NCBI GenBank assembly: GCA_033697325.1
Contig: GCA_033697325.1_4854.1
Source of the DNA: a phage
Direction: 5' to 3' (one strand)
Length of the DNA stretch: 46,335 nucleotides
The notes below the pieces were generated by a model that did no database searches, was not told the origin of the DNA, and saw nothing but the letters and a program-made list of their open reading frames with translations. This document shows positions 1,201 to 35,863 of this stretch, in pieces; the stretch's first letter is position 1, and the number at the start of each line of letters is the position of its first letter. Made by a program: the position numbers and the translations under genes.

Positions 1201-1656
1201 TTAAAAGCCATCAAATATCAATGGTTCTGATGGTTTGCTATGGTTTGGATAATTCATTGCTCGCCAGTCGTTAAATGCCATCATTGCCGCTTCCCAGCCG
1301 AGACAAACACAAGCGAATGAACCTAATCCTTTTGCTGTCTTAAGGTATGCCATTTGTCCAGGCTGCCATTTTGATAAAGTATGATCCATTCTTTTCATCT
1401 CCATAACGAATGATTGCTTTCCGCTAATAATGATGTCTGACGCCCCGAAGTTTAGCGCGCCTTTTTTCTTCAGGTTTTCAACTTCATACCCTTTACGCTT
1501 TCCTTCATTTGGTACATGAATCATAACTCTTGCAAAGTCAGGGTATAGCTTCCTTATCTGATTAACAAAAGTCTCCAGTTCAGCGTCTTCTGACGGGCAC
1601 TTTTTGTTTCTGTAATCTAAATTTCCATATACCTTAACGCCTTCTGGAAAAATCAT
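1201..1656 (-). CDS. VRR-NUC domain nuclease (PD-(D/E)xK family)
   Basis: Motifs VPNEG..., GASDIII, FVMEMKR, LSKWQ match VRR-NUC. ATG at 1656-1654 overlaps the helicase stop (ATGA coupling). Confidence 0.65.
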   Translation of the reverse strand: MIFPEGVKVYGNLDYRNKKCPSEDAELETFVNQIRKLYPDFARVMIHVPNEGKRKGYEVENLKKKGALNFGASDIIISGKQSFVMEMKRMDHTLSKWQPGQMAYLKTAKGLGSFACVCLGWEAAMMAFNDWRAMNYPNHSKPSEPLIFDGF

Positions 1657-4565
1657 AATACCCCCCAATACATGCCTTTAACGTTGAAATATTTACTACC
1701 CTTATCTCTTCTGAACATAATCACTGATGGCGCGACAGCCTCATCTCTTTTAGATATTGCATCATCAATTGACATGTTATGTTCACCAAAGCACTTCTCA
1801 CAAAATTCTTCCCACTCCTTCTTCATCCATTCCTTTTCAGAGTTTGGATTGTAGAACTTGCTAACAAAAAATGGCTTCTGGTCAATAGCAAATTTTACGT
1901 GCACCAAATCTTCACCACTTGAAACGTAATGCTTCATGATGTTCATCATGGTTACGCTTGATTGCTTGGTTGCATAAGGAGACGAATCAAGCCTGTCAGC
2001 TTCTTCCTTTAGCTTTTGGTTGGGGTCAATGATTTCAGCGCCGCATGATGTGCAGTTTCTTGCCGCTATATCATTTTCAAATCCACAATCAGGACACTCT
2101 TTCACCGACCACTTATAAGTACACCTGTGCATTTCCCTTAATGGCCCGTGCATAACGTAGTTTTTACATCTTCTGCCAAAATGAGCAGGCATAGGTTTGC
2201 TTCCAATTTTTTCACCTGACTTATCAAAAATATCAATCATCACCCTGTCACCAGCCAAATCAAGCCAGTAGCCTTCTTTGTCAACTTCCAGATTTTCCGG
2301 ATTTGGGCGCGCGCCAAATTCATTGATAAAGCCACACAACGGGCATTTTACATCCATTGGTACTGATGGTTTTTTCCTTGTTGCCTTTATTTCTGGGGTA
2401 AACAAGTCTCCAGTTTCTGAAAAGTGACGTTGAATATTTCCGGCGTAATCGCTGACAAGAAAGTCTTCCTTTCCCTCATAAAGACGCGTCCCTCTGCCAA
2501 TTATTTGCTGGTAGAGTCTTGGTGACTCTGTTGCTCTCATTACTGCTATATGATCACAATGAGGAACATCCACCCCTACAGTAAGGATATTCTGATTAAC
2601 GATGTATTTAACTTTTTGTGCCTTGAAGTCTGATATTGCCTTGTTGCGATCTGCTGTTGGCATATCACCAAAAACATAACTATAAGAACCGGGAGGAAGT
2701 GACTCCATTATCTCCATAGCGTGTTTCTTGGTACTGGCAAAAATCATCGTTCCGCGCCGATTAACAGAGCGACGGATAATATCTTCAACAATTCGTGATG
2801 TTTTCCTTCCCTTGCCAACCATCGCCTTTTCAACTGAAGCTGTTGTATACCGACCCAACTTATCCTTTTCAAGACAAGACGTATCATATTCTTCAAAAAC
2901 AGGCTCTGTAACTGGTGGCGTAAGATATCCATTTTCAATGAGGAATTTAGCCTCAAGCTCATAAACAACCTTATCATAATATGGGTCAATGGCAGTTTCT
3001 TCATCCGTAGGGCCATCGAGGTAGTGCTCTTTGTAGATGTATCCAGTTCCAAGGCGGTAAGGAGTGGCGGTCATTCCAATAACACGCAGTTTTTGATTGC
3101 GACGCTTCATTTCATTAATAATAAATTTTATGGTTGGCGTGATACCATCGCACTCGTCAATAATGACAGCACCATACTTATCACCAAACATCTCTATTGA
3201 GTTCTTTATTGTAACTGGTGAACCAAACACCACAGGATGACGCAGGTTTTTGGGGCCAGCCTTTGCACTGAACATGCTGGCTGGTTCTCCTGTTAGAGAA
3301 AGATAACGCTGCCTGTTTTGCACAACTAACTCACTTGTTGGGGCAACACACAAAACGCGCTTGCCAGTATTTTTAAAAACCCAATCGGCGATTGATGCAA
3401 CAACAACGCTTTTTCCGCTGTTATGGTGAATCGTGAAATCGCTGGTCAAATACAGATGGTCCCCATCTAAAGTAAATCCATAGAAATCATCTTCTGGTAA
3501 CTCCTCCACCTTAAAACCAGTACAGAGAACATCTTTTTTTTGCTTTCTCTCTTGTGCCACCTTGTAATCAATAAGCGGTTTAAGCATATCGATATCACCA
3601 CTGATACTTACTCTGTACTTTTTGGATACAAAAACACCGTCAAGAGTCGCGTCTCCTACGCCAATATACGCAGCCAGACCTAGTGATCTCGCAACAAACG
3701 CAATATCATCAGCAAGACGACCGGATACAGTGGTTATTTCGTAATAGTTATTGCCAAGATACCCATCAGTATCAACCAAGCCGGAGAGCAGCTCTATACG
3801 CTGTTCTTTTGACGCTATTTTGTAGCACTCAGGTATAAACACAGTGTAAGAGTTTGTGTATTGCAAACCAAGTTTTTTCACTTCATTAAGAATAGCGTTG
3901 CTTTTGTGTTTTCCTCTACCATTTGTTGCCATAAGATTGTGTGTATTTGTGCCATTTTTAACAGAGTCATTAACACAACAACCAAATGACTCTGACACGC
4001 TTTTGAAGTAGTTTATTAGTACATCCTCAGTTCCTGAAAATGTAACGCTACCGTTAGCTGTGGAACCGTCACCAAGAATCATCCCAACAAAACGCGCAGG
4101 TAAAGCCTGTTTAGCCTCTGGGAAGATAACACCTGTTCTGCATAGCTTATGTATATGCTTATGCCATTTTGCTGAACTTTCGTACTCAGCGACAGTTTCG
4201 TCGATGTACGACACCTCTTGAGATGGATATTTATTCACCTGCTTTTGCTTTACTCTCTTGAGATGAAGAATGTGATTCTTGTTAACAACAAAAGAATCAC
4301 CTTTAACTGGTGTAATTTTTCTCATCTCTTCTCGCCCACGGCACAGAGCAAGCACATTTCGTGGCTTGCTGTCCGGGCCCATTAATCTATCTCCGACTGT
4401 AACATCTTCAACGCTCTTGACGCTTCCATCAAACATAATGACTTTCGTTCCTTTGGCGTGACACCCTGTAGGCAAGATGATCATGCACGATGAAACGCTT
4501 GAACGAATATGACCTATAACAGAATCAACAGCTTCTTGTTGGTATGTTCTAAGCTGTACTTTCAT
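1653..4565 (-). CDS. SF2 (DEAD/DEAH-like) DNA helicase, interrupted by an intein; C-terminal zinc-ribbon region
   Basis: Motif I LPTG|SGKS is split by the intein. DExD-like VIIDECDG and MTATPYR motifs. C-terminal CPLCG...CPDCG...CTSCG. Start chosen at ATG 4565-4563, preceded by SD gagagga. Confidence 0.85.
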   Translation of the reverse strand: MKVQLRTYQQEAVDSVIGHIRSSVSSCMIILPTGCHAKGTKVIMFDGSVKSVEDVTVGDRLMGPDSKPRNVLALCRGREEMRKITPVKGDSFVVNKNHILHLKRVKQKQVNKYPSQEVSYIDETVAEYESSAKWHKHIHKLCRTGVIFPEAKQALPARFVGMILGDGSTANGSVTFSGTEDVLINYFKSVSESFGCCVNDSVKNGTNTHNLMATNGRGKHKSNAILNEVKKLGLQYTNSYTVFIPECYKIASKEQRIELLSGLVDTDGYLGNNYYEITTVSGRLADDIAFVARSLGLAAYIGVGDATLDGVFVSKKYRVSISGDIDMLKPLIDYKVAQERKQKKDVLCTGFKVEELPEDDFYGFTLDGDHLYLTSDFTIHHNSGKSVVVASIADWVFKNTGKRVLCVAPTSELVVQNRQRYLSLTGEPASMFSAKAGPKNLRHPVVFGSPVTIKNSIEMFGDKYGAVIIDECDGITPTIKFIINEMKRRNQKLRVIGMTATPYRLGTGYIYKEHYLDGPTDEETAIDPYYDKVVYELEAKFLIENGYLTPPVTEPVFEEYDTSCLEKDKLGRYTTASVEKAMVGKGRKTSRIVEDIIRRSVNRRGTMIFASTKKHAMEIMESLPPGSYSYVFGDMPTADRNKAISDFKAQKVKYIVNQNILTVGVDVPHCDHIAVMRATESPRLYQQIIGRGTRLYEGKEDFLVSDYAGNIQRHFSETGDLFTPEIKATRKKPSVPMDVKCPLCGFINEFGARPNPENLEVDKEGYWLDLAGDRVMIDIFDKSGEKIGSKPMPAHFGRRCKNYVMHGPLREMHRCTYKWSVKECPDCGFENDIAARNCTSCGAEIIDPNQKLKEEADRLDSSPYATKQSSVTMMNIMKHYVSSGEDLVHVKFAIDQKPFFVSKFYNPNSEKEWMKKEWEEFCEKCFGEHNMSIDDAISKRDEAVAPSVIMFRRDKGSKYFNVKGMYWGVL
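3420..4463 (-). mobile_element. Intein (348 aa) with LAGLIDADG homing endonuclease domain inserted in helicase P-loop
   Basis: Begins with Cys right after LPTG and ends ...TIHHN followed by Ser of SGKS. Two LAGLIDADG-like motifs (VGMILGDGS and LSGLVDTDGYL). Confidence 0.8.
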
Positions 4566-4579
4566 AGTGTCCTCTCGAA

Positions 4580-4602
4580 TAAAAAGGGCCACGAATGGCC
4601 CT
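4580..4602 (-). terminator. Intrinsic terminator/attenuator-like hairpin between SSB-like gene and helicase
   Basis: Minus strand agggcc-attcgt-ggccct followed by ttttt, immediately upstream of the helicase SD. Confidence 0.35.
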
Positions 4603-4618
4603 GTCATTCCAATCTAAA

Positions 4619-7267: not shown

Positions 7268-9597
7268 ATCTCAACCTCATCATTTGTTAATTTGTAAATA
7301 ACTGCCTTGTTGGATGTTCTTTTTGCGCTTTCATCAATACAAATAACCCCATCAGATAGTAACTTATCAACGCACCTCTCAACATCTGCGCGCTTATATC
7401 CACCGTCTTTTGCTACCCCTTTAATCATTGCTGTTTTAGTCATTCCACGTTTCACATATTCTTTAACCATGGAGAACAGTCCTTCAACCCTTTCCTCCAT
7501 TGCTTTAGACTTCGCTCCGGAAATACTGTCAGCACGCATCATCAGGTCGCTTGTTGATTTAATTGTTAATGCTACCGCATATCTCAAGTGCTCCATGGTT
7601 ATAACTCCAGTATCGCACGCGAGAATGCCAGCAATCTTTGCCACCTTCACAGCACATCTGTTTATCAATGGATGATAGCCAGTACCGTTTTCTACATGCT
7701 TTCTTGCAACAGTTTTAATCCATGAGAAGAAATCCTTAGCGAGCTGAGAAACTTCAGGCGTAGCTTTTATAATCCGCCTTTCTTTTTGACTGATGATTGA
7801 GTCTGTCCAGTTTTTGTGCCCAGCTGTTCCGCCATTTATTATTGTTTTTATGGTCAGTTGCATATCCATAGGTAGATCACAGTAGTTTACGTTTTCGTTT
7901 TCGTCAGCAATCTCCTGTAACTCCTGCATAATCATTGCGCGACCCATAAGACCTGACTTAATGTTTTCTTCAGTAATAAGGCGCTTAAACTGATCATCAG
8001 TAGACACACCAAAGATTGAAAAAAATGGATTCCTTATAGCTCCATCAATTCTGTTTATCACATCATCAAACTGACACTTAATGTCAACAGGGTCTGCCTG
8101 TATCTCATTTTCCTCAATAGCCATTAACAGCATAGCCTTTCTTTTTTCGAAAGACTTAATGAAATCCTCAGTAACCCGCTGGTCACAATAAAGAACTTCT
8201 GACGTGTAAGCCTCCATGATCGCACCAGCGGTTGCCATGTTGTACTCGCTTACTTTCTGACCAACAACACTCCCAAGTTTTATCCCAATCTCATCCATGA
8301 TGATATTAAACATCTGGTTAGCGCAAAGACCTTCATATATCGCACGTTCTGAACGTATCTTACCGGCAACCGTCTTACTTAATCCTGAGCAATCAATTAT
8401 CTTTTGTAGCGCTGCAAGAACATCACCTTTACCTGAACCAGAGCCAGCGATACCAACAGCAAAAAGGTTTGGCAAAGCCTTCCTGTTTGTAAGGTAAATA
8501 TCAGATGACGCTCCGCAAATCATGGATGCAGCGTGCAATGCAGCAAGTGCTGCAATATTCTCTCGCTTCTCTGCACAGTTCTTATTAATCCACGCCGTAA
8601 GGCGACCAACAAATCCAGGGGGATAACGGACATCAACACTTTTGTACTCTACAGGGCATTCACCAACACCCATAGCCATCTCTCGCTCGAAAGACTCAAG
8701 TTTCTCAATTTCCTCTGGCGTAGCCTCAAAAGTTACTTGCCTTACCCATCCTCCCTCTTGTGCCAGATAAACAAGAGTTCCTGCGGTTATCTTGTCGTCA
8801 ATTCCATCTTTACCAAATGAATGCCATTTTGCATCCATTTCTTCTGGTCGGTATTTGCTAAACTGTGATGACCAGTTGTTCCACAGATCAAAACCATTAC
8901 CGTCAGTTGCTTCATGGATAGCCATCCCCACATTTATCCACGGATTGTACTCATCACCATCCTTGATGTATTTGAGCATGTCCTCCATTTCAGCAATGCT
9001 GTAATTTTTACTATCGAGCGTGAAAACCTCATCTTCAGATCGCTCAGGACGAAGCAGAAGTTCAATAAGTTGATATGGAGCTTCAGTTATCTCAGAAGGA
9101 GAGCCATGCTCGGCTTCATAAAAATTACCTGACTTATGGAAAGATCCGCAACCAATAACGAAACCAGATGATTTAAAGTCAATGCCATTAAATCTTCTGT
9201 CATGAGATCGCAGCTTCATTCCTTCAGGAAGTTTGTAATAGATATGGCGACCACCTCCACCAGTCTTTACCGTAAAACCAGATTCATCAGCAAGTTCAAC
9301 ATCTAACGCATCACACAACGCCTCATATCCATCATCACCACCATTCCTTGGGTCAATATCAACAACAAGGTACCCATTAACAAGAACGCCGAATGACTGT
9401 AACTTGCCATACTTAGCCATGCTTTCAATCTGCTCATCATCCCACTGAACACCAAGCTGCCAGTTACTCATAATCGGATGCTTTCCCGCAGCCTTGCATT
9501 CCGGATCGCCACAAGTACAGTTGCGCCACTCATCCATCGGATGAATGTCGATAATAGGGAAGCCGCATTTGCGATAATCTTCATAACCAATCATCAT
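7264..9597 (-). CDS. DNA primase/polymerase (prim-pol N-terminal domain) with C-terminal P-loop NTPase-like region
   Basis: VDIDPRNGGDDGYEAL and CxxC motifs resemble bifunctional prim-pol; downstream GIAGSGSGKG P-loop. ATG 9597 overlaps the upstream stop. Confidence 0.7.
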   Translation of the reverse strand: MMIGYEDYRKCGFPIIDIHPMDEWRNCTCGDPECKAAGKHPIMSNWQLGVQWDDEQIESMAKYGKLQSFGVLVNGYLVVDIDPRNGGDDGYEALCDALDVELADESGFTVKTGGGGRHIYYKLPEGMKLRSHDRRFNGIDFKSSGFVIGCGSFHKSGNFYEAEHGSPSEITEAPYQLIELLLRPERSEDEVFTLDSKNYSIAEMEDMLKYIKDGDEYNPWINVGMAIHEATDGNGFDLWNNWSSQFSKYRPEEMDAKWHSFGKDGIDDKITAGTLVYLAQEGGWVRQVTFEATPEEIEKLESFEREMAMGVGECPVEYKSVDVRYPPGFVGRLTAWINKNCAEKRENIAALAALHAASMICGASSDIYLTNRKALPNLFAVGIAGSGSGKGDVLAALQKIIDCSGLSKTVAGKIRSERAIYEGLCANQMFNIIMDEIGIKLGSVVGQKVSEYNMATAGAIMEAYTSEVLYCDQRVTEDFIKSFEKRKAMLLMAIEENEIQADPVDIKCQFDDVINRIDGAIRNPFFSIFGVSTDDQFKRLITEENIKSGLMGRAMIMQELQEIADENENVNYCDLPMDMQLTIKTIINGGTAGHKNWTDSIISQKERRIIKATPEVSQLAKDFFSWIKTVARKHVENGTGYHPLINRCAVKVAKIAGILACDTGVITMEHLRYAVALTIKSTSDLMMRADSISGAKSKAMEERVEGLFSMVKEYVKRGMTKTAMIKGVAKDGGYKRADVERCVDKLLSDGVICIDESAKRTSNKAVIYKLTNDEVEI

Positions 9598-9998
9598 TTA
9601 ATTCTCTCCACATAAGCAGTATCGCGCGTAACCGTCTTGCATCTGTACTCCCTTCTTGTGTACACGCCAACAGCGTACAAAGCATTGCGCAATTGCTTAA
9701 CGTCTTTTATCAACGTAAACTCATCAAACACAAAATGCTTCCTGACACCTTTACCCATCTTTCTCACAAACTGGTAAGTTTCTTCCTGTTTAGTTCCAAT
9801 GGGAAAATCACCACAAAAAAAACCCACCGAAGCGTCAATACCATGGGATTCACGATACTTCTCAGCAGCCTTTCTCGTTGTAAACCGTTTCGCATAATCA
9901 ATATCGTCAGTGTATGTATCATCATCAAAACGTAAATACACCGCACACGCAGAACCATCCGCATCAACACCTGGCTTGTCAAGATAATAAAATTTCAT
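9594..9998 (-). CDS. Hypothetical protein
   Basis: ORF of 134 aa with SD ggggtgag before ATG 9998. Confidence 0.5.
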   Translation of the reverse strand: MKFYYLDKPGVDADGSACAVYLRFDDDTYTDDIDYAKRFTTRKAAEKYRESHGIDASVGFFCGDFPIGTKQEETYQFVRKMGKGVRKHFVFDEFTLIKDVKQLRNALYAVGVYTRREYRCKTVTRDTAYVERIK

Positions 9999-10013
9999 AT
10001 CTCACCCCGCTCT

Positions 10014-10232
10014 TCATTTAATCCGTTTCACCCACAAACCATCTTCCTTAACCCGCGTCTTAAACATCCAGCCGCTCTTTACAGCAATCTTGCTAAGGCT
10101 CATTCTGAAACTTGGCAAATCATTAACAACAAACCGATCAAAATGAAAAACCTTCTCTTCACCAACCAACATTTTGCACACAAAATCGTGAACCTCAGCT
10201 ATCGCACTCCCGAATCGGTATTTAATATTCAT
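10014..10232 (-). CDS. Hypothetical protein
   Basis: ORF; ATG 10232 is preceded by SD agggggaaa. Confidence 0.4.
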   Translation of the reverse strand: MNIKYRFGSAIAEVHDFVCKMLVGEEKVFHFDRFVVNDLPSFRMSLSKIAVKSGWMFKTRVKEDGLWVKRIK

Positions 10233-10422
10233 CACTTTCCCCCTCATGGATTTTGAAATTTGATAAAAGTATAAAAAGATACAAGCGAGCAGTCAACACA
10301 TTTCATCGCCACCAATTGGGTTGACGCCATGTGGAAAACAGCGTATAAAAATACCACAGGAAAGAATTTTCCCTTTCACATCAAAATGTTAGACAAATCC
10401 TAAATTTGCTAATTCCATGTTA

Positions 10423-10545
10423 CGGGAAATAGGAACGTCAAGAAAATCAGATATTTAATCTCTATTTCACATTCCTGAGGAAATAGTGGGGTGGTAAAAA
10501 AAATTGAAGAGGGAAAATTATAAACCACCCTCTCGGGAAATAGGA
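10423..10545. repeat. Iteron-like direct repeats (CGGGAAATAGGA x2 plus a GGAAATAG variant) in the control region
   Basis: Exact 12-mer at 10423-10434 and 10534-10545; related copy at 10479-10486. Spacing about 55 bp. AT-rich stretch 10650-10790 follows. Confidence 0.4.
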
Positions 10546-10821
10546 AAACGGGACAAAACTGGAAGTCTTTAAAAATAAAAGGTTTTCCACTTCCAGTAAC
10601 AAAAGTTTCATGGCTAACACAATTCTTTAACAAATAACCAGCTTAATTGCTGGTTTTTGTGTTTCTGTAGCGTAATGTATTGATATCTATAATAAATATA
10701 AAGAAGATCTTAATATACTTTATAGAGGTAATAAACAAAGGTCACTATTAGTAACACATGTAACTATACATGTAAGCTAGCCTTCACTAACATTTAGTCG
10801 TGCTTTTTCTTTCTCTGTGTG

Positions 10822-10850
10822 TTGACGTAGAATCATCGTTGATGTAGATT
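10822..10850 (+). promoter_or_regulatory. Promoter for rightward small-gene operon, carrying two copies of the recurrent motif
   Basis: TTGACG(TAGA), 17-nt spacer, (TGATG)TAGATT. Confidence 0.5.
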
Positions 10851-10880
10851 GGACTCATCGAAACAAGAGAGGGTGAAGAG

Positions 10881-11027
10881 ATGAAAATCAAAGACCGTGA
10901 AGAATTTGAAGATGCACAGGCTATGGCACGCATTGCAGTTGAGCGCATAAACAACAGTATTCCTGCTGAAGCATTCTGGAATGCAGCGATGCAGGCTTTA
11001 ATATCTGCGTATGGGTTAAGCAAATGA
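10881..11027 (+). CDS. Hypothetical small protein (48 aa)
   Basis: ATG with SD gagagggtgaagag; below the 60-aa ORF track cutoff, found by reading. Confidence 0.4.
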   Translation: MKIKDREEFEDAQAMARIAVERINNSIPAEAFWNAAMQALISAYGLSK

Positions 11028-11119
11028 CAGGCGCATCATTCGAACTTATCGCCAGTCTGGTTATCGTGGCATTCATCATCATTGCAGTGGCAGTTTCTAA
11101 ATCAGGATATAAGGAGTAA
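11024..11119 (+). CDS. Hypothetical small membrane protein (31 aa)
   Basis: ATGA overlap with the upstream stop; hydrophobic core LIASLVIVAFIIIAVAV. Confidence 0.3.
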   Translation: MTGASFELIASLVIVAFIIIAVAVSKSGYKE

Positions 11120-11207
11120 CAAAATGAGAAACTGGCATAACGAACACATCATGCAGTGGTATCGCCGTCGCATCAAGGCAATTACTAACTCTTATGAGGT
11201 TTAATAA

Positions 11208-11408
11208 ATGGCAAAGACTATCTATCGTCGCGAGAAGCTGGAACCAGAACTCGGTCACGTTGGCGCGCAAAACTTTATGAGCAGGCAGGTGGAGCGAGCA
11301 GTGAACTCTCAACGATGCTCGAAGGTATGTCGAGTATGGCACAGAGATGGCGATAAACGCGTGCTGGACGAGGTAATCATCTCTGTACAGGCAAACTATC
11401 AGCTTTGA
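11208..11408 (+). CDS. Hypothetical protein
   Basis: ORF of 66 aa in the operon. Confidence 0.35.
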   Translation: MAKTIYRREKLEPELGHVGAQNFMSRQVERAVNSQRCSKVCRVWHRDGDKRVLDEVIISVQANYQL

Positions 11409-11456
11409 TATGTTTTGTTTAAACGTAAACGATTCAGCTATGTTAATGGTGGTGAT

Positions 11457-11874
11457 ATGAGTGAATTGATCATCAAGAACTGTCCGTTTTGTGGTGGTGA
11501 ACAAAAAGTTAAGCTATTGCGTTCATTTTTGGCATAAAGCTCCATACTTCCTCATTCGATGTCAATGCGGTGTGAGAATGACAAATTTTAAGGATTCAGC
11601 AGCGAAAGCTATTGCAGATTGGAACTCTGAGTCGATGGTGTTTGATATGGCAAAAGTAAAAACATACGAGTTCTGGTTTACGATGAACAGAATGTATGCA
11701 AGCAGGACAATCAGGCGAGTCCGATGGTGGAATAAGTGGCTAATCCTGTCAGGCTGCATCGTGCTGGCAAAGTGCAAATTCAAAGCGATTGACATCACCG
11801 ATGAGGATGCACTCATAATCGCAAAGATTGAGTTTGAAGAAGATGGCTATTACGAAGAAATTATGGGGGGTTAG
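11457..11874 (+). pseudogene. Lar-family restriction alleviation protein homolog, apparently frameshifted in a T5 run (11526-11530)
   Basis: Frame 3 gives MSELIIKNCPFCGGEQKVKLLRSFLA then stop. Frame 1 continues ...HKAPYFLIRCQCGVRMTNFKDSAAKAIADWNSE. Removing one T would fuse them into a Lar-like protein (CPFCGG ... C.CG ... AIxxWN). Confidence 0.55.
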
Positions 11875-11877
11875 GGT

Positions 11878-12093
11878 ATGAACAGAGCATCGCCAGTTGA
11901 ATTAAGGCAGTCGCTTGAAATGGCTAATGCTCTTGCATCAGCAGGCATCAGGTTTGTGCCAGTTCCTGTCATTAATGATGCTGGATTTAACAGATTAATG
12001 GATGAAACCAGAAAGATTCTTGATGATATGCTTGCTGAAGTGGAGCATGACACCACCAACCAGCAATTCGAAAGCCTGGCTAAAAGTGAATAG
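11878..12093 (+). CDS. Hypothetical protein
   Basis: ORF of 71 aa; GTGA overlap with the previous ORF. Confidence 0.45.
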   Translation: MNRASPVELRQSLEMANALASAGIRFVPVPVINDAGFNRLMDETRKILDDMLAEVEHDTTNQQFESLAKSE

Positions 12094-12422
12094 CTACCCG
12101 TTCATATTAATTATCAGTGCGCTCTATGTGGCGCACGCTTTAGTGGAGATGTATCTATGACCAGACACCAACGACGCCGATACACAACTGGCGCTAAAAT
12201 TTTCCTTGCTGTTTATGCGCTGGCACTGGTGACGGCTATTGCTGGGGTTGTGCATTATGTTTAACGATATTAGTGACGCAATGCAAAACATGTGGGAACG
12301 CTACTGGGGCAGTATGAAGACATGTCACTACATGATGGTACAGATAGGCAATTACATTGAGGTTGTTCCTGCCAATGGTGTGCATGACATTAAGTGCATG
12401 TGTTCAACGAGGGCTTTCGCAA

Positions 12423-12596
12423 ATGCAAACAACTAAAGCGAAGGTTTGGCAACTGGCAAAGCAGCATGAGTTGGACGATTTCATAGCGAAGGTTGCCAAA
12501 ACATTCCCTGATGCGCTTGAAATCGTTCATGTGCAGACTAGCAATGAAAACGCATGGTGCTATGCTGGCAAGCGTGATAATGATGGTGTACAATAA
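12423..12596 (+). CDS. Hypothetical small protein
   Basis: ORF with internal ATG; start uncertain. Confidence 0.3.
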   Translation: MQTTKAKVWQLAKQHELDDFIAKVAKTFPDALEIVHVQTSNENAWCYAGKRDNDGVQ

Positions 12597-12641
12597 GTGC
12601 ATAACCACTCATTGCCTCACTCATATCATCACACAACCTTT

Positions 12642-12670
12642 AACCCGCCTTGTGCGGGTTCTTTTTTTTG
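12642..12670 (+). terminator. Intrinsic terminator
   Basis: acccgc-cttgt-gcgggt hairpin followed by a T8 run. Confidence 0.65.
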
Positions 12671-12746
12671 CAATTAACGCTATGGTGTAGAATCTGTTAC
12701 AATATCGAATAACGGAAAAAAAGCGGAATATTGATGGGTTTTATCT

Positions 12747-13169
12747 ATGGCTAAAAAGCTATTCAGTAAAGAAAATCAACCACAAAACAAACGCGGGAAG
12801 GATAAGCGTAAGCTGCTTGTTGAGGCTCTTGAGAGAAAGGGTTTTAGTGAGGAAAAGCTCTATGACACCATTGTTGAGATGGCGATGATTGAGCGCGACA
12901 CTGCAATGATGAAGGAGCTTATCGTTCGGTTCAGTCCGTTGCCGAAACCAGTTGCCCCAGTCTTTGAAGTGGACTTTCCTGATGATGGAACTCCGGTACA
13001 GAAGATTGATGCTGTCATTCGCGGTATAGCCGCTGGCGTTATACCTGTGGACATTGGTAAGACATTTGCCGATGTCATCAGGACTGGGCTTGATATTGCT
13101 GAAGTTACAGAACTCGCCGCGCGCCTTGAGCGACTGGAGAAATTACTGGAGCAGCAGAATGGCTCGTAA
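12747..13169 (+). CDS. Terminase small subunit (putative)
   Basis: 140 aa, basic N-terminus, lies directly upstream of and overlaps the large terminase. Confidence 0.55.
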   Translation: MAKKLFSKENQPQNKRGKDKRKLLVEALERKGFSEEKLYDTIVEMAMIERDTAMMKELIVRFSPLPKPVAPVFEVDFPDDGTPVQKIDAVIRGIAAGVIPVDIGKTFADVIRTGLDIAEVTELAARLERLEKLLEQQNGS

Positions 13170-14583
13170 ACGCCTATCCGCACTGGCAATTGAAAAACTG
13201 GAAGCGCAGGTTGATGATGCAATGACAGATGTCGCAGAGTCTGCCATCTTTGGCATCTGCGACATGCAAAAGAACATCATTAAGCGGTTAAGGATGACAG
13301 CTACTGGCGTTGATGACGTGACCAACGCAACCACTCATGCTGACCACCTGATTCCGGCAAAGCTGGAGCGCCTGCTTTATCCCAAACGATTTAAGTTTGT
13401 CTATGGTGGCCGTGGGTCAGGGAAGACAAGAACGATTATCACCATCCTTACCGAGCGAGCAAGGTTTCGACCTGACCGCTTTGCCTGCTTTCGTGAGATT
13501 CAGCAATCCATTGAGGACTCAAGCTATCAGGAGCTTGTTGACGAAATAGCCCGCAAGGGTGAATCGGCAGAGTTTCGCGTTATCAATAATGAGATAACTC
13601 ACAAAAAGACCAAAGCGAAGTTTCGCTTCAAAGGGTTGTATCGCAATCAGACAACCATTAAGGGCTTTGCTGGTATTACCGTCGGCTGGGTAGAGGAGGC
13701 AGAGAACGTCAGTCAGACAAGCTGGGATATTCTTGTTCCCACCATCCGCGCTGCAAATTCCGAGCTGTGGTGTTCATTCAACCCCAACAAGGAAACAGAC
13801 CCAACATGGAAAAACTGGATTTCACCTTATCACTCACAGATGGTTGATGGCATATTCGAAAACGATGAAATTCTGATTATCGAATGTAACTATTCAGACA
13901 ACCCGTGGTTCTGGGACACTCCCCTGCCGTCCGCTATGGAGCAAATGAAGCGAACTGATTACGACCGTTATCGCTGGATTTGGATGGGAGCATTCAACAA
14001 GCGCAGCGACGAGCAGGTCTTTGGCGGTAAGTGGCACATTGATAACTTTGAGGTTAAGTCTGAATGGCATGGGCCATACTTCGGAATGGACTTCGGGTTT
14101 TCCACGGATCCTACCGCAATGGTTGAGGTTTATATCGAAGAATTACCCGGGGGGCGTCGCAACATTTATATTAATCGCGAGTATGGCAAGGTTGGTCTTG
14201 AGATTACCGATACACCAGCTGCGATGGAGCAATCATTCCCGATGGCTAAGCGTGCGCGATGGTATGCTGACTGCGCGCGTCCCGAAACCATAAGCCACAT
14301 CAAGCGTTCTGGCTTTGATATTCACCCGTGCACGAAATGGCCGGGTAGCGTTGAAGATGGCGTTACGTGGCTGCGCGGCTGTGACAGCATTGTCATTCAC
14401 GAACGATGCAAGGAAATGCAGAATGAGGCAGCAATGTACAGCTACAAGGTTGATAAGCTGACGGGGAATGTGCTGACTGATATTGTTGATGCATATAACC
14501 ACTACTGGGATGCGGTTCGCTACGCACTCAATGATCACATCGTCCAGCGCGGTAGCGGGATGCTAATCCGGCGCAGGCGATAA
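13159..14583 (+). CDS. Terminase large subunit
   Basis: Walker A GGRGSGKT and terminase-type ATPase plus nuclease domain architecture. ATG at 13159 in frame with the longer ORF. Confidence 0.85.
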   Translation: MARKRLSALAIEKLEAQVDDAMTDVAESAIFGICDMQKNIIKRLRMTATGVDDVTNATTHADHLIPAKLERLLYPKRFKFVYGGRGSGKTRTIITILTERARFRPDRFACFREIQQSIEDSSYQELVDEIARKGESAEFRVINNEITHKKTKAKFRFKGLYRNQTTIKGFAGITVGWVEEAENVSQTSWDILVPTIRAANSELWCSFNPNKETDPTWKNWISPYHSQMVDGIFENDEILIIECNYSDNPWFWDTPLPSAMEQMKRTDYDRYRWIWMGAFNKRSDEQVFGGKWHIDNFEVKSEWHGPYFGMDFGFSTDPTAMVEVYIEELPGGRRNIYINREYGKVGLEITDTPAAMEQSFPMAKRARWYADCARPETISHIKRSGFDIHPCTKWPGSVEDGVTWLRGCDSIVIHERCKEMQNEAAMYSYKVDKLTGNVLTDIVDAYNHYWDAVRYALNDHIVQRGSGMLIRRRR

Positions 14584-14599
14584 ATCTGCATCACCACAC

Positions 14600-14628
14600 T
14601 TGACCAATCTACACCGGGCGCATAGTAT
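14600..14628 (+). promoter_or_regulatory. Promoter between terminase and portal, driving two small accessory genes
   Basis: TTGACC, 17-nt spacer, TAGTAT; two motif copies at 14607-14615 and 14629-14638. Confidence 0.45.
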
Positions 14629-14658
14629 ATCTACATCAGGATTACCGGAGATATCACT

Positions 14659-14865
14659 ATGCGCAGCTATGCAGGGTTCACGCAGGAGGAAAAAGAGCAG
14701 GTTTATTCACTGGCGCGGGCTGGTGTGCCTGATGAAGTTATTTGTCGTCGGTATGACATCGACGAGGATTTCCTGCTGCGCGTTCTGGATGATGTCTTCG
14801 TTAACCTGCAAGAGAAGCGCGGTTACAAAGGTATCTGCTGTAAGAATGATTTTTTGAGAGGGTGA
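14659..14865 (+). CDS. Hypothetical protein
   Basis: ORF of 68 aa with SD ggag. Confidence 0.45.
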   Translation: MRSYAGFTQEEKEQVYSLARAGVPDEVICRRYDIDEDFLLRVLDDVFVNLQEKRGYKGICCKNDFLRG

Positions 14866-14869
14866 TGTG

Positions 14870-15037
14870 ATGAAAATTGAGGAAACATCTAACTGTCTGG
14901 CGATTAATGTGTTCACGGATTACGACACTATTTGTGTGCAGGATTTCACTGGAGATTATGTCAGGATTGATAAACATCAAGCTGCGCAGCTAATCGAAGT
15001 CCTGCATCACTGGGTTAATGGTGAGGAGATTGAGTGA
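14870..15037 (+). CDS. Hypothetical small protein (55 aa)
   Basis: ATG with SD gagagggtga; found by reading. Confidence 0.35.
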   Translation: MKIEETSNCLAINVFTDYDTICVQDFTGDYVRIDKHQAAQLIEVLHHWVNGEEIE

Positions 15038-15127
15038 TGAGCGTTTATTTTATGTATCAAGTCAGCAGCCACAGCAAGAAAGGAAGCTGAGCTAAGACAT
15101 GACTTTCACAAGAACCACGGCGCTTGA

Positions 15128-23792: not shown

Positions 23793-23987
23793 ATGGCGCA
23801 TGACGAACTGTACGAAGAGTCGCTAATCCAGCGACTGAATGAAGTTGATCGTACTCGCGAATGGCTGGAATGTGAGTTGCGGGAAGTGCGCAACAGACTG
23901 CAACGCAAACGCAGCCAGCAAAAAGACGTTATCGACTGGTCAGGTGATACGCCTAAATTTAACAACTTGGGAGAATGGATAAAATGA
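23793..23987 (+). CDS. Hypothetical protein (64 aa)
   Basis: SD gggaga before ATG 23793. Confidence 0.45.
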   Translation: MAHDELYEESLIQRLNEVDRTREWLECELREVRNRLQRKRSQQKDVIDWSGDTPKFNNLGEWIK

Positions 23988-24235
23988 GCGCACCACATAT
24001 GCCGATGATGAATGAACAGGGATTCTTGAGCTGCCCATTCTGTGGTTGTGATGATGTTGGTATTGCCATAGATGAGGATGGGTGGGAATACATAGAATGC
24101 GGAGATTGCTATTGCCGCACAGACGCATTCCGTAACAGAGAGCTAATGACTAAGTCATGGAACACAAGAGGTGGACACCTCTACACCGCAGAAGACTTCA
24201 ATCAGGCAGCAGGGGAACGCGTTCATGGACTATAA
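23984..24235 (+). CDS. Lar-family restriction alleviation protein homolog (intact paralog)
   Basis: SCPFCGCDD...YIECGDCYCRTDAFRNRELMTKSWNTR shows the Lar-like zinc-ribbon pattern; ATGA coupling. Confidence 0.6.
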   Translation: MSAPHMPMMNEQGFLSCPFCGCDDVGIAIDEDGWEYIECGDCYCRTDAFRNRELMTKSWNTRGGHLYTAEDFNQAAGERVHGL

Positions 24236-34559: not shown

Positions 34560-34636
34560 TGGTGGACACGGACGGATTTGAACCTTCAATCAGCCGATTA
34601 TGAGTCGGTTGCTTTAACCAATTAAGCTACGCGTCC
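34560..34636 (-). tRNA. tRNA with CAU anticodon (elongator Met or lysidine-modified Ile2; not initiator-like)
   Basis: 77-nt cloverleaf folded by hand: 7-bp acceptor stem including one GU, D-arm with GG, anticodon loop CUCAUAA, T-loop GGTTCAAATCC, discriminator A, encoded CCA. G1-C72 pair argues against initiator. Confidence 0.75.
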
Positions 34637-35146: not shown

Positions 35147-35863
35147 ATGGCTATTTGTGCAAATGATAAGGGCGTTCTGGTCGGTCGCATGACACGACTG
35201 TTCCTTGCTGAGGGGTGCGGCGACGCAGTTCCGGAGGCAGGAGACTGGAAGTATTTAGGCTCAACCACCAGTAAAGGCGTTGACTACTCGCCGCAGACCA
35301 CCACGTCGGAGGCAGATACCGCTGGCGGTTTTGTTTCCACTCTCGTTACCAGCTCTGATATGACCATCAGCGCAGAGGTGGAAATCCGCAAGAATGACCC
35401 AAGCGATGAATTTGGCTTCCACCGTCTGGTTGAGATTTACGCCACTGAACTGAAAGCGCGTCGTCAGCCTTCTTTGTGGGTACGCGAGGTAACTGGCGCA
35501 ACTATCGTTACTGCGTACTGCAACATTACCAGCATCAGCTACGAAGGTGGCACTAACGACATCGTGACTGGCAGCCTTGAGTTCAAGGTTTACGATTCTG
35601 ACAGCGTTACCGTCGAAAGCCTTGAACCTCTGGCGTTCACCACCGACCTGCCATCAACTGGCAGCACTGGCAGTCCGTTAACGGTTGCTGTTGAAGGTGG
35701 CGTCGCACCATACACCTACGTCTGGCGCAAAGATGGTGTGGTTGTTGGTGGTGAGTCTGGCTCATCACTGGCAAGCCCTACAGCTGGCGTATACACCGTC
35801 ACGGTAACAGATTCATCTACTGACCCGGAAGTTATTATCAGCACGGCGTGCACCGTATCCTGA
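35147..35863 (+). CDS. Major tail protein with C-terminal Ig-like domain
   Basis: 238 aa; C-terminal PYTYVWRKDGVVVGG...AGVYTVTVTDSS is Ig-like; SD ggaga; position before chaperone and tape measure genes. Confidence 0.6.
   Translation: MAICANDKGVLVGRMTRLFLAEGCGDAVPEAGDWKYLGSTTSKGVDYSPQTTTSEADTAGGFVSTLVTSSDMTISAEVEIRKNDPSDEFGFHRLVEIYATELKARRQPSLWVREVTGATIVTAYCNITSISYEGGTNDIVTGSLEFKVYDSDSVTVESLEPLAFTTDLPSTGSTGSPLTVAVEGGVAPYTYVWRKDGVVVGGESGSSLASPTAGVYTVTVTDSSTDPEVIISTACTVS

What the first reader, a model, noticed from the sequence alone, without database searches (positions are those of the whole stretch)
11457..11874. Lar-like anti-restriction gene disrupted by a single-base frameshift in a T5 run
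The N-terminal CPFCGG zinc ribbon and the downstream C.CG...AIADWN part are in different frames and meet at ttttt (11526-11530). Removing one T restores a Lar-like protein. This could be a sequencing error, a genuine pseudogene, or slippage-controlled expression. An intact Lar-like paralog exists at 23984-24235.
Basis: seen in the sequence. Interest (0 to 1): 0.5.

Follow-up and report, generated by a model that had tools for sequence, protein, structure and literature searches.

The report
Frameshifted Lar-fusion gene in a phage
A small zinc-ribbon gene of the Lar family, in a T1-like coliphage, is broken by one extra T; this is most likely an ordinary, recent loss-of-function mutation in a dispensable accessory gene, not a regulated frameshift.

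Summary
ATG 11457 opens a 26-codon ORF (MSELIIKNCPFCGGEQKVKLLRSFLA*). The rest of the Lar-type zinc ribbon continues in the +1 frame from the T5 run at 11526-11530. Only the T-deleted reading passes Pfam's Lar threshold (35.3 bits, cut-off 28.6).

The repaired ORF is not a ~62-aa Lar. It is a 138-aa in-frame fusion of Lar to the next conserved gene (phrog_10786, own start at 11647). Four relatives carry a separate, intact 62-aa Lar. Eight distinct metagenomic proteins carry the intact fusion, and the two whose DNA I could read have T4 or T3 at this site. So the two halves belong to one gene, and the slippery run is not conserved.

There are no features of programmed frameshifting. None of 62 other conserved genes is broken. 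An independent Logan assembly (SRR24462278) reproduces T5 exactly.

Best reading: a genuine, recent frameshift that kills the Lar part of a lineage-specific fusion gene, while the downstream gene keeps its own start (about 0.75). A sequencing error is about 0.15 and functional slippage about 0.05. The Lar paralog at 23984-24235 is confirmed. Low interest.

The parts
11445..11456 (+). Ribosome-binding/start motif aatggtggtgat just upstream of the Lar ATG. In Lar-less relatives the same motif sits directly upstream of the phrog_10786 ATG.
   Evidence: about 30 relatives have ...aatggtgatgatATGGCAAAAG. The window has the motif twice, before 11457 and before 11647, so the Lar cassette was inserted between this motif and the ATG of the resident gene.
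11457..11537 (+). 5' fragment of the Lar-type gene: a 26-codon ORF, MSELIIKNCPFCGGEQKVKLLRSFLA*, holding the first CxxC zinc knuckle and ending at a premature TAA.
   Evidence: Pfam PF14354 gives 19.0 bits, below the 28.6 cut-off.
11526..11530 (+). T5 run, the site of the +1 insertion. The closest intact sibling has T4 (TCA TTT TGT CAT), the next has T3 (TCA TTT GGG CAT), and stand-alone Lar genes have TCA TCT GAC CAT.
   Evidence: Alignments.
11530..11625 (+). 3' half of the Lar domain in the +1 frame (WHKAPYFLIRCQCGVRMTNFKDSAAKAIADWN), with the second zinc knuckle CxC.
   Evidence: Against the intact sibling SRR29134139 it differs by 3 nt only: 2 synonymous changes and 1 at the junction codon.
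11624..11625 (+). Position of a clade-specific 1-nt deletion (GGAA-CTC versus GGAATCGC). It removed Lar's own TGA stop and fused the Lar frame to the downstream gene.
   Evidence: The deletion is shared by the window and by the intact fusions L040 and L041. It is absent from IME207, VSt472 and LPST49 (KFSST1 was aligned only), whose Lar ends ...DWNRRADGV*.
11634..11646 (+). Duplicated start motif gatggtgtttgat, the phrog_10786 gene's own ribosome-binding region. In stand-alone Lar genes the same bases encode the tail DGV*.
11647..11874 (+). Conserved downstream gene (phrog_10786, unknown function): 75 aa, MAKVKTYEFW...EEIMGG*. It is intact and keeps its own start, so it should still be expressed despite the frameshift.
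   Evidence: phrog_10786 at 1e-40. It is 88% identical to Sa179lw gp48. More than 100 homologs of 77 aa were found.
11865..11870 (+). G6 run unique to the window. Of 36 relatives, 28 have G5, the rest have 2-4, and none has G6. It changes the C-terminus from MGVRV* (ATGA overlap with the next gene) to MGG*.
23984..24235 (+). Intact, distantly related second Lar-family gene (83 aa from ATG 23984).
   Evidence: PF14354 at 37.3 bits. phrog_599 'Lar-like' at 3.4e-13. 33% identical to Rac Lar/RalR over 46 aa. Syntenic with Sa179lw gp83. Only the CPFCG knuckle aligns with the broken copy.

Best explanation
This is a genuine and evolutionarily recent +1 insertion (T4 to T5 at 11526-11530). It inactivates the Lar-type zinc-ribbon part of an accessory gene in a T1-like (Drexlerviridae-type) coliphage.

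History, inferred from comparisons:
1. A 62-codon Lar cassette was inserted between the ribosome-binding motif and the ATG of the resident phrog_10786 gene, duplicating that motif.
2. In one sub-lineage a 1-nt deletion removed Lar's stop codon, producing a 138-140-aa Lar-phrog_10786 fusion ORF that survives intact in several phages.
3. In the window's phage an extra T now ends translation after 26 codons.

Consequences (inferred). Ribosomes starting at 11457 make a 26-aa peptide with half a zinc ribbon, which is presumably inert. The phrog_10786 protein is still made from its own start at 11647. Any Lar-type activity must come from the intact paralog at 23984-24235.

What the intact domain does is known only by analogy with the founding member. 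Rac Lar alleviates EcoKI (type IA) restriction and enhances modification. The same protein, RalR, has also been reported as a non-specific DNase toxin.
For: Structure of the lesion:
- The Lar domain passes Pfam's threshold only when the two frames are joined.
- Four relatives have an intact stand-alone 62-aa Lar.
- Eight distinct intact fusion proteins of 140-153 aa occur on 12 contigs.
- Only the window has T5.

Evidence that the T5 is real:
- 62 conserved genes of Sa179lw each hit the window in a single frame. These include the 777-aa primase and the 828-aa tail protein, and none is broken.
- Logan contig SRR24462278_68 is 100.000% identical to window 8208-15093, including T5 and G6.
- The frameshift-dependent 98-aa ORF is also in an NCBI TPA E. 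coli assembly (HEI0268540.1).

Evidence that it is recent:
- The Lar half downstream of the shift has no stop codon.
- It differs from the intact sibling by only 2 synonymous and 1 junction change.
- Pairwise dN/dS for the restored Lar is 0.19.

Evidence that the Lar part is dispensable:
- Most relatives lack this Lar altogether.
- One intact fusion, P0163, has lost the second zinc cysteine (CPFF).
- The window has Q at P16, a position where all 12 other sequences have P.
- A second Lar-family gene is present.

Downstream gene: its start motif is conserved.
Against: - The window has two window-unique +1 homopolymer changes within 345 bp (T5 and G6). That is the signature expected of homopolymer miscalls.
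- The absence of any secondary decay is equally what a sequencing error would give.
- The Logan and NCBI assemblies probably derive from the same reads, so they rule out an assembler or editing slip but not a platform error or a mixed population.
- The sequencing platform is unknown to me.
Confidence: 0.75

Rival explanations
1. Sequencing or consensus error. The true phage has T4 (and perhaps G5) and encodes an intact 138-140-aa Lar-phrog_10786 fusion like its siblings.
For: - Both window-unique indels are +1 changes in homopolymers 335 bp apart.
- The Lar frame downstream of the shift is perfectly preserved.
- With T4 the protein matches the intact fusions at 83-87% identity.
Against: - None of 62 other conserved genes is frameshifted, although the window holds 49 T5, 16 T6 and 3 T8 runs and many A runs.
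- A second, independent assembly (Logan) of SRR24462278 gives the same bases over the 6.9 kb compared (window 8208-15093).
- A 5-base run is short for a consensus-level error.
- The tail at the G run varies naturally in relatives: L007 has G4 and P0164 ends MGSGYE.
Confidence: 0.15
2. Recoding or contingency locus. The T5 run is a +1 slippery site (tRNA-Phe shifting UUU_U) or a slippage-prone tract. It would let a fraction of ribosomes, transcripts or genomes make the full fusion, tuning Lar dosage.
For: - UUU UUG allows tRNA-Phe to re-pair in the +1 frame, and a stop lies two codons downstream.
- The downstream Lar frame is intact.
- Lar/RalR is reported to be toxic when overproduced (PMC4041452), so low-level expression could be useful.
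Against: - The run is not conserved. The two intact fusions whose DNA was read have T4 or T3 in frame, all eight fusion proteins are single uninterrupted ORFs, and stand-alone Lar genes have no T run here.
- There is no Shine-Dalgarno-like stimulator upstream.
- The A-site codon is UUG, not a stop or a very rare codon.
- The surrounding RNA is less structured than shuffled controls (z = +2.08).
- From general knowledge, T5 is far below the run length of about 8-9 needed for appreciable transcriptional slippage.
- T5 runs are common in this genome (49 of them).
Confidence: 0.05
3. The two halves are normally separate genes, or the match is a chance resemblance, so nothing is broken.
For: None found. 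The 98-aa ORF is annotated simply as a hypothetical protein in NCBI.
Against: All 12 comparable sequences have both halves in one ORF. Each half alone fails the Pfam threshold while the joined reading passes.
Confidence: 0.01

Closest known systems
Lar-like proteins of related T1-like phages (IME207 gp88 YP_009322801, VSt472 gp76 YP_010053759, KFSST1 XYM60787; unannotated in LPST49)
   Same: Orthologous. They sit at the same genomic position and use the same start motif. DNA identity is 81-84% (79% for LPST49), and Lar-domain protein identity is 69-71%. All have CPFCGGE...YFLIRCxCG...RMTNF...AIxDWN.
   Different: They are intact, 62 aa, with their own TGA stop and a separate downstream gene. 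The window's copy has lost that stop (it is fused) and carries the extra T.
Intact Lar-phrog_10786 fusion ORFs in Logan/NCBI contigs (P0001, P0002, P0160-P0165; e.g. SRR29134139_60524, SRR26326233_9249)
   Same: Same architecture, and the two whose DNA was read (P0001, P0002) share the same 1-nt deletion that creates the fusion. They are 83-87% identical to the T-deleted window protein.
   Different: They are uninterrupted (T4 or T3 in the two whose DNA was read) and mostly end in MGVRV*. The window has T5 and ends MGG*.
Rac prophage Lar = RalR (E. coli K-12 b1348, 64 aa), founding member of Pfam PF14354
   Same: Same Pfam family. The alignment covers 63 residues at 25% identity, including CPFCG, the second Cys pair and the WN motif (pairwise E 3e-05). 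Both are small phage accessory genes.
   Different: The relationship is very distant. Rac Lar is stand-alone and paired with the sRNA RalA. Its reported activities, EcoKI restriction alleviation (King & Murray 1995, cited in PMC4041452) and non-specific DNase toxicity (PMC4041452), have not been tested for any T1-like phage member.
Lambda Ral
   Same: A functional analogue of Rac Lar. It is a small phage protein that speeds de novo methylation by type IA enzymes and so alleviates restriction (PMC12707154).
   Different: It was not compared here. It serves only as a mechanistic analogy for what an intact Lar domain might do.
Programmed +1 frameshifting of the prfB type
   Same: A P-site tRNA could re-pair in the +1 frame on a U-rich run.
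   Different: The prfB site is conserved across species and has an in-frame stop in the A site and an upstream Shine-Dalgarno stimulator (general knowledge). None of these is present here.

Membership tests
Pfam PF14354 Lar_restr_allev (Lar family) | Profile score above the curated gathering threshold (28.6 bits) | tested here: met
   Met only for the T-deleted reading: 35.3 bits, residues 6-57. The real ORFs score 19.0 and 14.5 bits and fail. phrog_599 'Lar-like' at 5.4e-07.
Pfam PF14354 Lar_restr_allev (Lar family) | Four-cysteine zinc ribbon (CxxC ... CxC) and the C-terminal WN motif | tested here: met
   C9, C12, C35, C37 and W55-N56 are present in the restored sequence. All but C12 are invariant across the 13 sequences; C12 is replaced by F only in P0163. 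As the sequence stands, the two cysteine pairs lie in different frames.
Pfam PF14354 Lar_restr_allev (Lar family) | Detectable similarity to the founding member, Rac Lar/RalR | tested here: met
   25% identity over 63 aa, pairwise E 3e-05. Weak, but colinear over the whole domain.
Pfam PF14354 Lar_restr_allev (Lar family) | An intact, translatable gene for a small stand-alone protein (~60-70 aa) | tested here: not met
   The gene is frameshifted at 11526-11530 with a premature TAA at 11535. Even when repaired, the ORF is a 138-aa fusion.
Pfam PF14354 Lar_restr_allev (Lar family) | Alleviates type IA (EcoKI) restriction and enhances modification | not testable with these tools
   This needs plating efficiency of unmodified phage on EcoKI r+m+ versus r-m- hosts. 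No paper found reports such a test for the T1-like phage members; the 9 papers found for the annotation term were listed by title and abstract, not read.
Programmed ribosomal +1 frameshift site | Slippery sequence and two-frame arrangement conserved among relatives | tested here: not met
   All 12 relatives have a single uninterrupted ORF. In the six whose DNA was read, the site is T4, T3 or TCATCT.
Programmed ribosomal +1 frameshift site | Stimulatory elements: a slow or stop codon in the A site, an upstream SD-like sequence, or a flanking structure | tested here: not met
   The A-site codon is UUG. The upstream sequence AAGCTATTGCGTTCA has no SD-like run. The RNA fold z-score is +2.08.
Sequencing artefact (homopolymer miscall) | Other genes in the same assembly broken at homopolymers | tested here: not met
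   62 of 62 matched Sa179lw CDSs hit the window in a single frame. The split hits of stop-to-stop ORFs that I followed up lie in non-coding or wrong-strand frames or at mosaic boundaries; a few were not followed up.
Sequencing artefact (homopolymer miscall) | The indel is not reproduced by an independent assembly or by the reads | tested here: inconclusive
   The Logan contig of SRR24462278 reproduces T5 and G6 exactly. It probably derives from the same reads as the window, and read-level counts are not available.

The most novel reading that the evidence does not exclude
The Lar-phrog_10786 fusion may not be an accident of a lost stop codon. It could be a functional two-product gene, giving the full fusion plus a 75-77-aa protein from the retained internal start. 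That would point to phrog_10786, a protein of unknown function conserved in more than 100 T1-like phages, as a partner in the same host-takeover or anti-restriction pathway. The short T/G tract at codons 24-25 (T3, T4 and T5 across the three DNAs I could read) would then act as a mutational on/off switch for the Lar moiety in phage populations.
Probability: 0.1. Interest if true: 0.45.

Novelty: new member of a known kind. Interest (0 to 1): 0.2.

Why it matters
It matters little beyond annotation.

- **Annotation.** The locus should be recorded as a frameshifted Lar-family pseudogene (11457-11646) followed by an intact phrog_10786 gene (11647-11874). It should not be recorded as the 98-aa or 127-aa 'hypothetical protein' that gene callers produce.
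- **Accessory-gene turnover.** The locus shows how accessory genes change in T1-like phages. A cassette was inserted at a duplicated start motif. It was then fused to its neighbour by loss of one base, and finally lost through a homopolymer indel.
- **Phage practice.** This phage should be assumed to rely on its second Lar-family gene, if on any, for Lar-type activity.
- **A modest lead.** The fusion links Lar with phrog_10786, which is worth one experiment.

Tried and rejected
- **Exact-pattern scans.** I searched for closer relatives carrying the window's variant of the T-run region. TTGCGTTCAN{3,7}GGCATAAAGC in IMG/VR gave 3 hits, all unrelated chance matches. TTAAGCTATTGCGTTCATTT gave 1 unrelated hit in JGI metagenomes and none in IMG/VR.
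- **Second homolog search.** A search with the 59-aa restored Lar domain returned 'no candidate' because of the word-index limit. It was uninformative and cost one search.
- **Structure prediction.** AlphaFold2 on the intact fusion P0002 with a 45-sequence alignment gave mean pLDDT 37.5 and pTM 0.25, which is unusable, so I ran no fold search.
- **DNA of further fusions.** The T-run state is therefore known at DNA level for only two intact fusions.
- **E. coli genomes.** A megablast of the locus against complete E. coli genomes found nothing, so it is not a prophage region there.
- **Closest whole-genome relative.** ECO111 5-P (92% identity) lacks this Lar cassette, so it could not serve as an ortholog.
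- **Split tblastn hits.** Hits of relatives' stop-to-stop ORFs suggested other frameshifts. The ones I followed up fell in non-coding frames, on the wrong strand, at mosaic boundaries or in an intergenic A run upstream of the major tail gene; a few were not followed up.
- **Compensating indels.** I considered that the +1 at the T run and the -1 at 11624/11625 compensate each other. I rejected this because the -1 is shared with the two intact fusions whose DNA was read.

Full report
**What the window is.** The 46.3-kb window is a T1-like siphophage of enterobacteria. Its closest record is Escherichia phage ECO111 5-P, at about 92% identity over about 70% of the window. Other relatives are Sa179lw, Sf11, VSt472, IME207 and many Salmonella phages. 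The finding lies in a short rightward operon of small accessory genes. The operon is bounded by a terminator-like hairpin at 10636-10655, a promoter-like site at 10822-10850 and another terminator-like hairpin at 12642-12660.

**Checking the observation.**
- ATG 11457 opens MSELIIKNCPFCGGEQKVKLLRSFLA and stops at TAA 11535-11537.
- TTTTT occupies 11526-11530.
- The +1 frame is open from 11491 to TAG 11872-11874 and contains WHKAPYFLIRCQCGVRMTNFKDSAAKAIADWN.
- Deleting one T gives a single 138-codon ORF.
- On Pfam PF14354 (Lar_restr_allev, cut-off 28.6 bits) the joined protein scores 35.3 bits over residues 6-57. The two real ORFs score 19.0 and 14.5 bits.
- The DNA aligns end to end with loci in IME207 and VSt472 (83-84% identity, E 4e-128).

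The split domain is therefore real and not a chance resemblance. The second Lar-family gene at 23984-24235 is also real. It scores 37.3 bits on PF14354 and 3.4e-13 on phrog_599, and it is syntenic with Sa179lw gp83. It is only remotely related to the broken copy.

**What relatives show.** IME207, VSt472, KFSST1 and LPST49 each have an intact 62-codon Lar gene, MSELIIKKCPFCGGEPKVKPWRSSDHEKPYFLIRCSCGARMTNFRESAEQAIDDWNRRADGV*. It is unannotated in LPST49. A separate gene for a 77-aa protein, MAKVKTYEFW...EEIMGVRV*, follows it. That downstream gene is phrog_10786, of unknown function (1e-40). It is present in more than 100 related phages, most of which have no Lar at this position.

In Lar-less genomes the motif aatggtgatgat directly precedes the ATG of the downstream gene. 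In Lar-bearing genomes the motif precedes the Lar ATG, and a second copy (gatggtgtttgat) precedes the downstream ATG, where it also encodes the Lar tail DGV*. Lar is therefore an inserted cassette flanked by a duplicated start motif.

**The unexpected part: a fusion.** With one T removed, the window's Lar frame does not stop. It runs through SESMVFD into the ATG of phrog_10786 and on to 11874. A protein search found two intact proteins of this architecture, P0001 (153 aa) and P0002 (140 aa), 87-88% identical to the repaired window protein over 99% of its length. Their contigs (L040, L041) share with the window a 1-nt deletion (GGAA-CTC versus GGAATCGC, between window 11624 and 11625) that removes Lar's stop codon.

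The 90%-identity cluster of P0002 holds six more intact fusions (P0160-P0165, 140-141 aa), some on contigs of up to 47.6 kb. In total there are eight distinct intact fusion proteins on 12 contigs. A phmmer scan of 1.84 billion cluster representatives found no other representative that matches both halves, so the fusion is confined to this small clade.

At the frameshift site the closest intact sibling reads TCA TTT TGT CAT (T4) and the next reads TCA TTT GGG CAT (T3). The window reads TCATTTTTGGCAT (T5). So the window differs from its intact siblings by one extra base at this site.

**Is the extra T real?** Points in favour of an artefact:
- The window has a second unique +1 homopolymer change 335 bp downstream, G6 at 11865-11870. 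Among 36 relatives 28 have G5, the rest have 2-4, and none has G6. It changes the C-terminus from MGVRV* to MGG*.
- The Lar half downstream of the shift shows no decay. Against SRR29134139 it has 2 synonymous changes and 1 junction change. dN/dS for the restored domain is 0.19.

Points against an artefact:
- 62 annotated Sa179lw proteins each hit the window in a single frame, despite dozens of T5-T8 and A5-A8 runs.
- The split hits I followed up from a cruder screen fell in non-coding frames or at mosaic joints.
- Logan contig SRR24462278_68 (46,949 nt), produced by a different assembly pipeline, is 100.000% identical to window 8208-15093, including T5 and G6.
- The frameshift-dependent 98-aa ORF is also present in NCBI as HEI0268540.1, 'TPA: hypothetical protein SIE67_004071 [Escherichia coli]'. 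I infer that the window is a phage contig from a third-party assembly of an E. coli isolate run, probably the same reads.
- The tail at the G run varies naturally in relatives: L007 has G4 and P0164 ends MGSGYE.

I put a genuine mutation at about 0.75 and a read-level error at about 0.15.

**Is it programmed?** No evidence supports this.
- The run is not conserved.
- There is no SD-like stimulator, and the A-site codon is UUG.
- The local RNA is less structured than shuffled controls (z = +2.08).
- T5 runs are common in this genome.
- From general knowledge, transcriptional slippage needs considerably longer runs.

Low-level spontaneous +1 slippage at UUU_U cannot be excluded, but nothing marks it as selected.

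**Mechanism and consequences (inferred).** Translation from 11457 yields a 26-aa peptide with one zinc knuckle, and the Lar domain is lost. phrog_10786 keeps its start motif and ATG at 11647 and should still be made. Several observations fit loss of a dispensable accessory function:
- The Lar moiety is absent from most relatives.
- One intact fusion, P0163, has lost a zinc cysteine (CPFF).
- The window carries Q at the otherwise invariant P16.
- A second Lar-family gene exists in the window.

**What the intact domain does.** This rests on the founding member only. Rac Lar alleviates EcoKI restriction and enhances modification (King & Murray 1995, cited as ref. 30 in PMC4041452). Lambda Ral is a functional analogue that accelerates de novo methylation by type IA enzymes (PMC12707154). 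The same Rac protein is now annotated as RalR, a non-specific DNase toxin with the sRNA antitoxin RalA (PMC4041452). The restored window protein is 25% identical to it over 63 residues. I found no functional test of the T1-like phage members; the 9 papers found for the annotation term were seen only as titles and abstracts.

**Verdict.** The finding is correct and is mostly ordinary. It is a recently frameshifted Lar-family gene and a new member of a known kind. The added detail is that this lineage had fused the gene to its downstream neighbour. Interest 0.2.

Noticed in passing
window 1653-4607 (minus strand); insert at about 3420-4463: The UvsW/ResIII-type helicase gene carries an in-frame 1044-nt (348-aa) insertion relative to Sa179lw gp35. 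The insertion splits the Walker A motif (ILPTG|CHAKGT ... TIHHN|SGKS). Pfam hits: Hom_end_hint at 81 bits, Hom_end, and LAGLIDADG_3. This is an intein with a homing endonuclease.
   Followed up: partly
window 11865-11870: A G6 run unique to the window: 28 of 36 relatives have G5, the rest have 2-4, and none has G6. It shortens the phrog_10786 C-terminus from MGVRV* to MGG* and removes the ATGA stop/start overlap with the next gene (ATG 11878). It is the second window-unique +1 homopolymer change in the same locus.
   Followed up: yes
window 11445-11459 and 11634-11649: The start motif (a)atggtgNtgatATG is duplicated on either side of the Lar cassette. Lar-less relatives have a single copy in front of phrog_10786. 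This suggests cassette insertion by recombination at a conserved ribosome-binding/start sequence.
   Followed up: yes
window 34560-34636 (minus strand): A tRNA-Met (CAT) gene lies between the head/tail genes and the major tail protein promoter region (ARAGORN; Rfam RF00005 at 63.4 bits).
   Followed up: no
window 8208-15093 = Logan SRR24462278_68 (L044/L046/L049): The window is identical to a 46,949-nt Logan contig, which is 614 nt longer than the window. Its 98-aa ORF is in an NCBI third-party assembly labelled Escherichia coli (HEI0268540.1, locus tag SIE67_004071). The phage was apparently co-sequenced with an E. coli isolate, through a carrier state or contamination.
   Followed up: partly
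L045, L047, L048 (metagenomic relatives sharing the identical 71-aa protein of window 11878-12093): These relatives carry an N6_Mtase-domain gene upstream of the DUF7540 gene. They also have an intein (Hom_end_hint/LAGLIDADG) in the large terminase and an HNH gene. None of these is present at the corresponding places in the window.
   Followed up: no
P0163, P0164, P0165 (intact fusion relatives): The first zinc knuckle varies within the fusion clade: CPFF (second Cys lost), CLFC and CSFC. This hints at relaxed constraint on the Lar moiety once it is fused.
   Followed up: partly
window about 35030 (intergenic, upstream of the major tail protein gene at 35147): The length of an A run differs among the window, ECO111 5-P and Sa179lw, next to a strong promoter-like TTGACA...TATAAT-type sequence (CTGTCAACACCTGTGATATAAT). 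This is natural homopolymer variation in non-coding DNA.
   Followed up: partly
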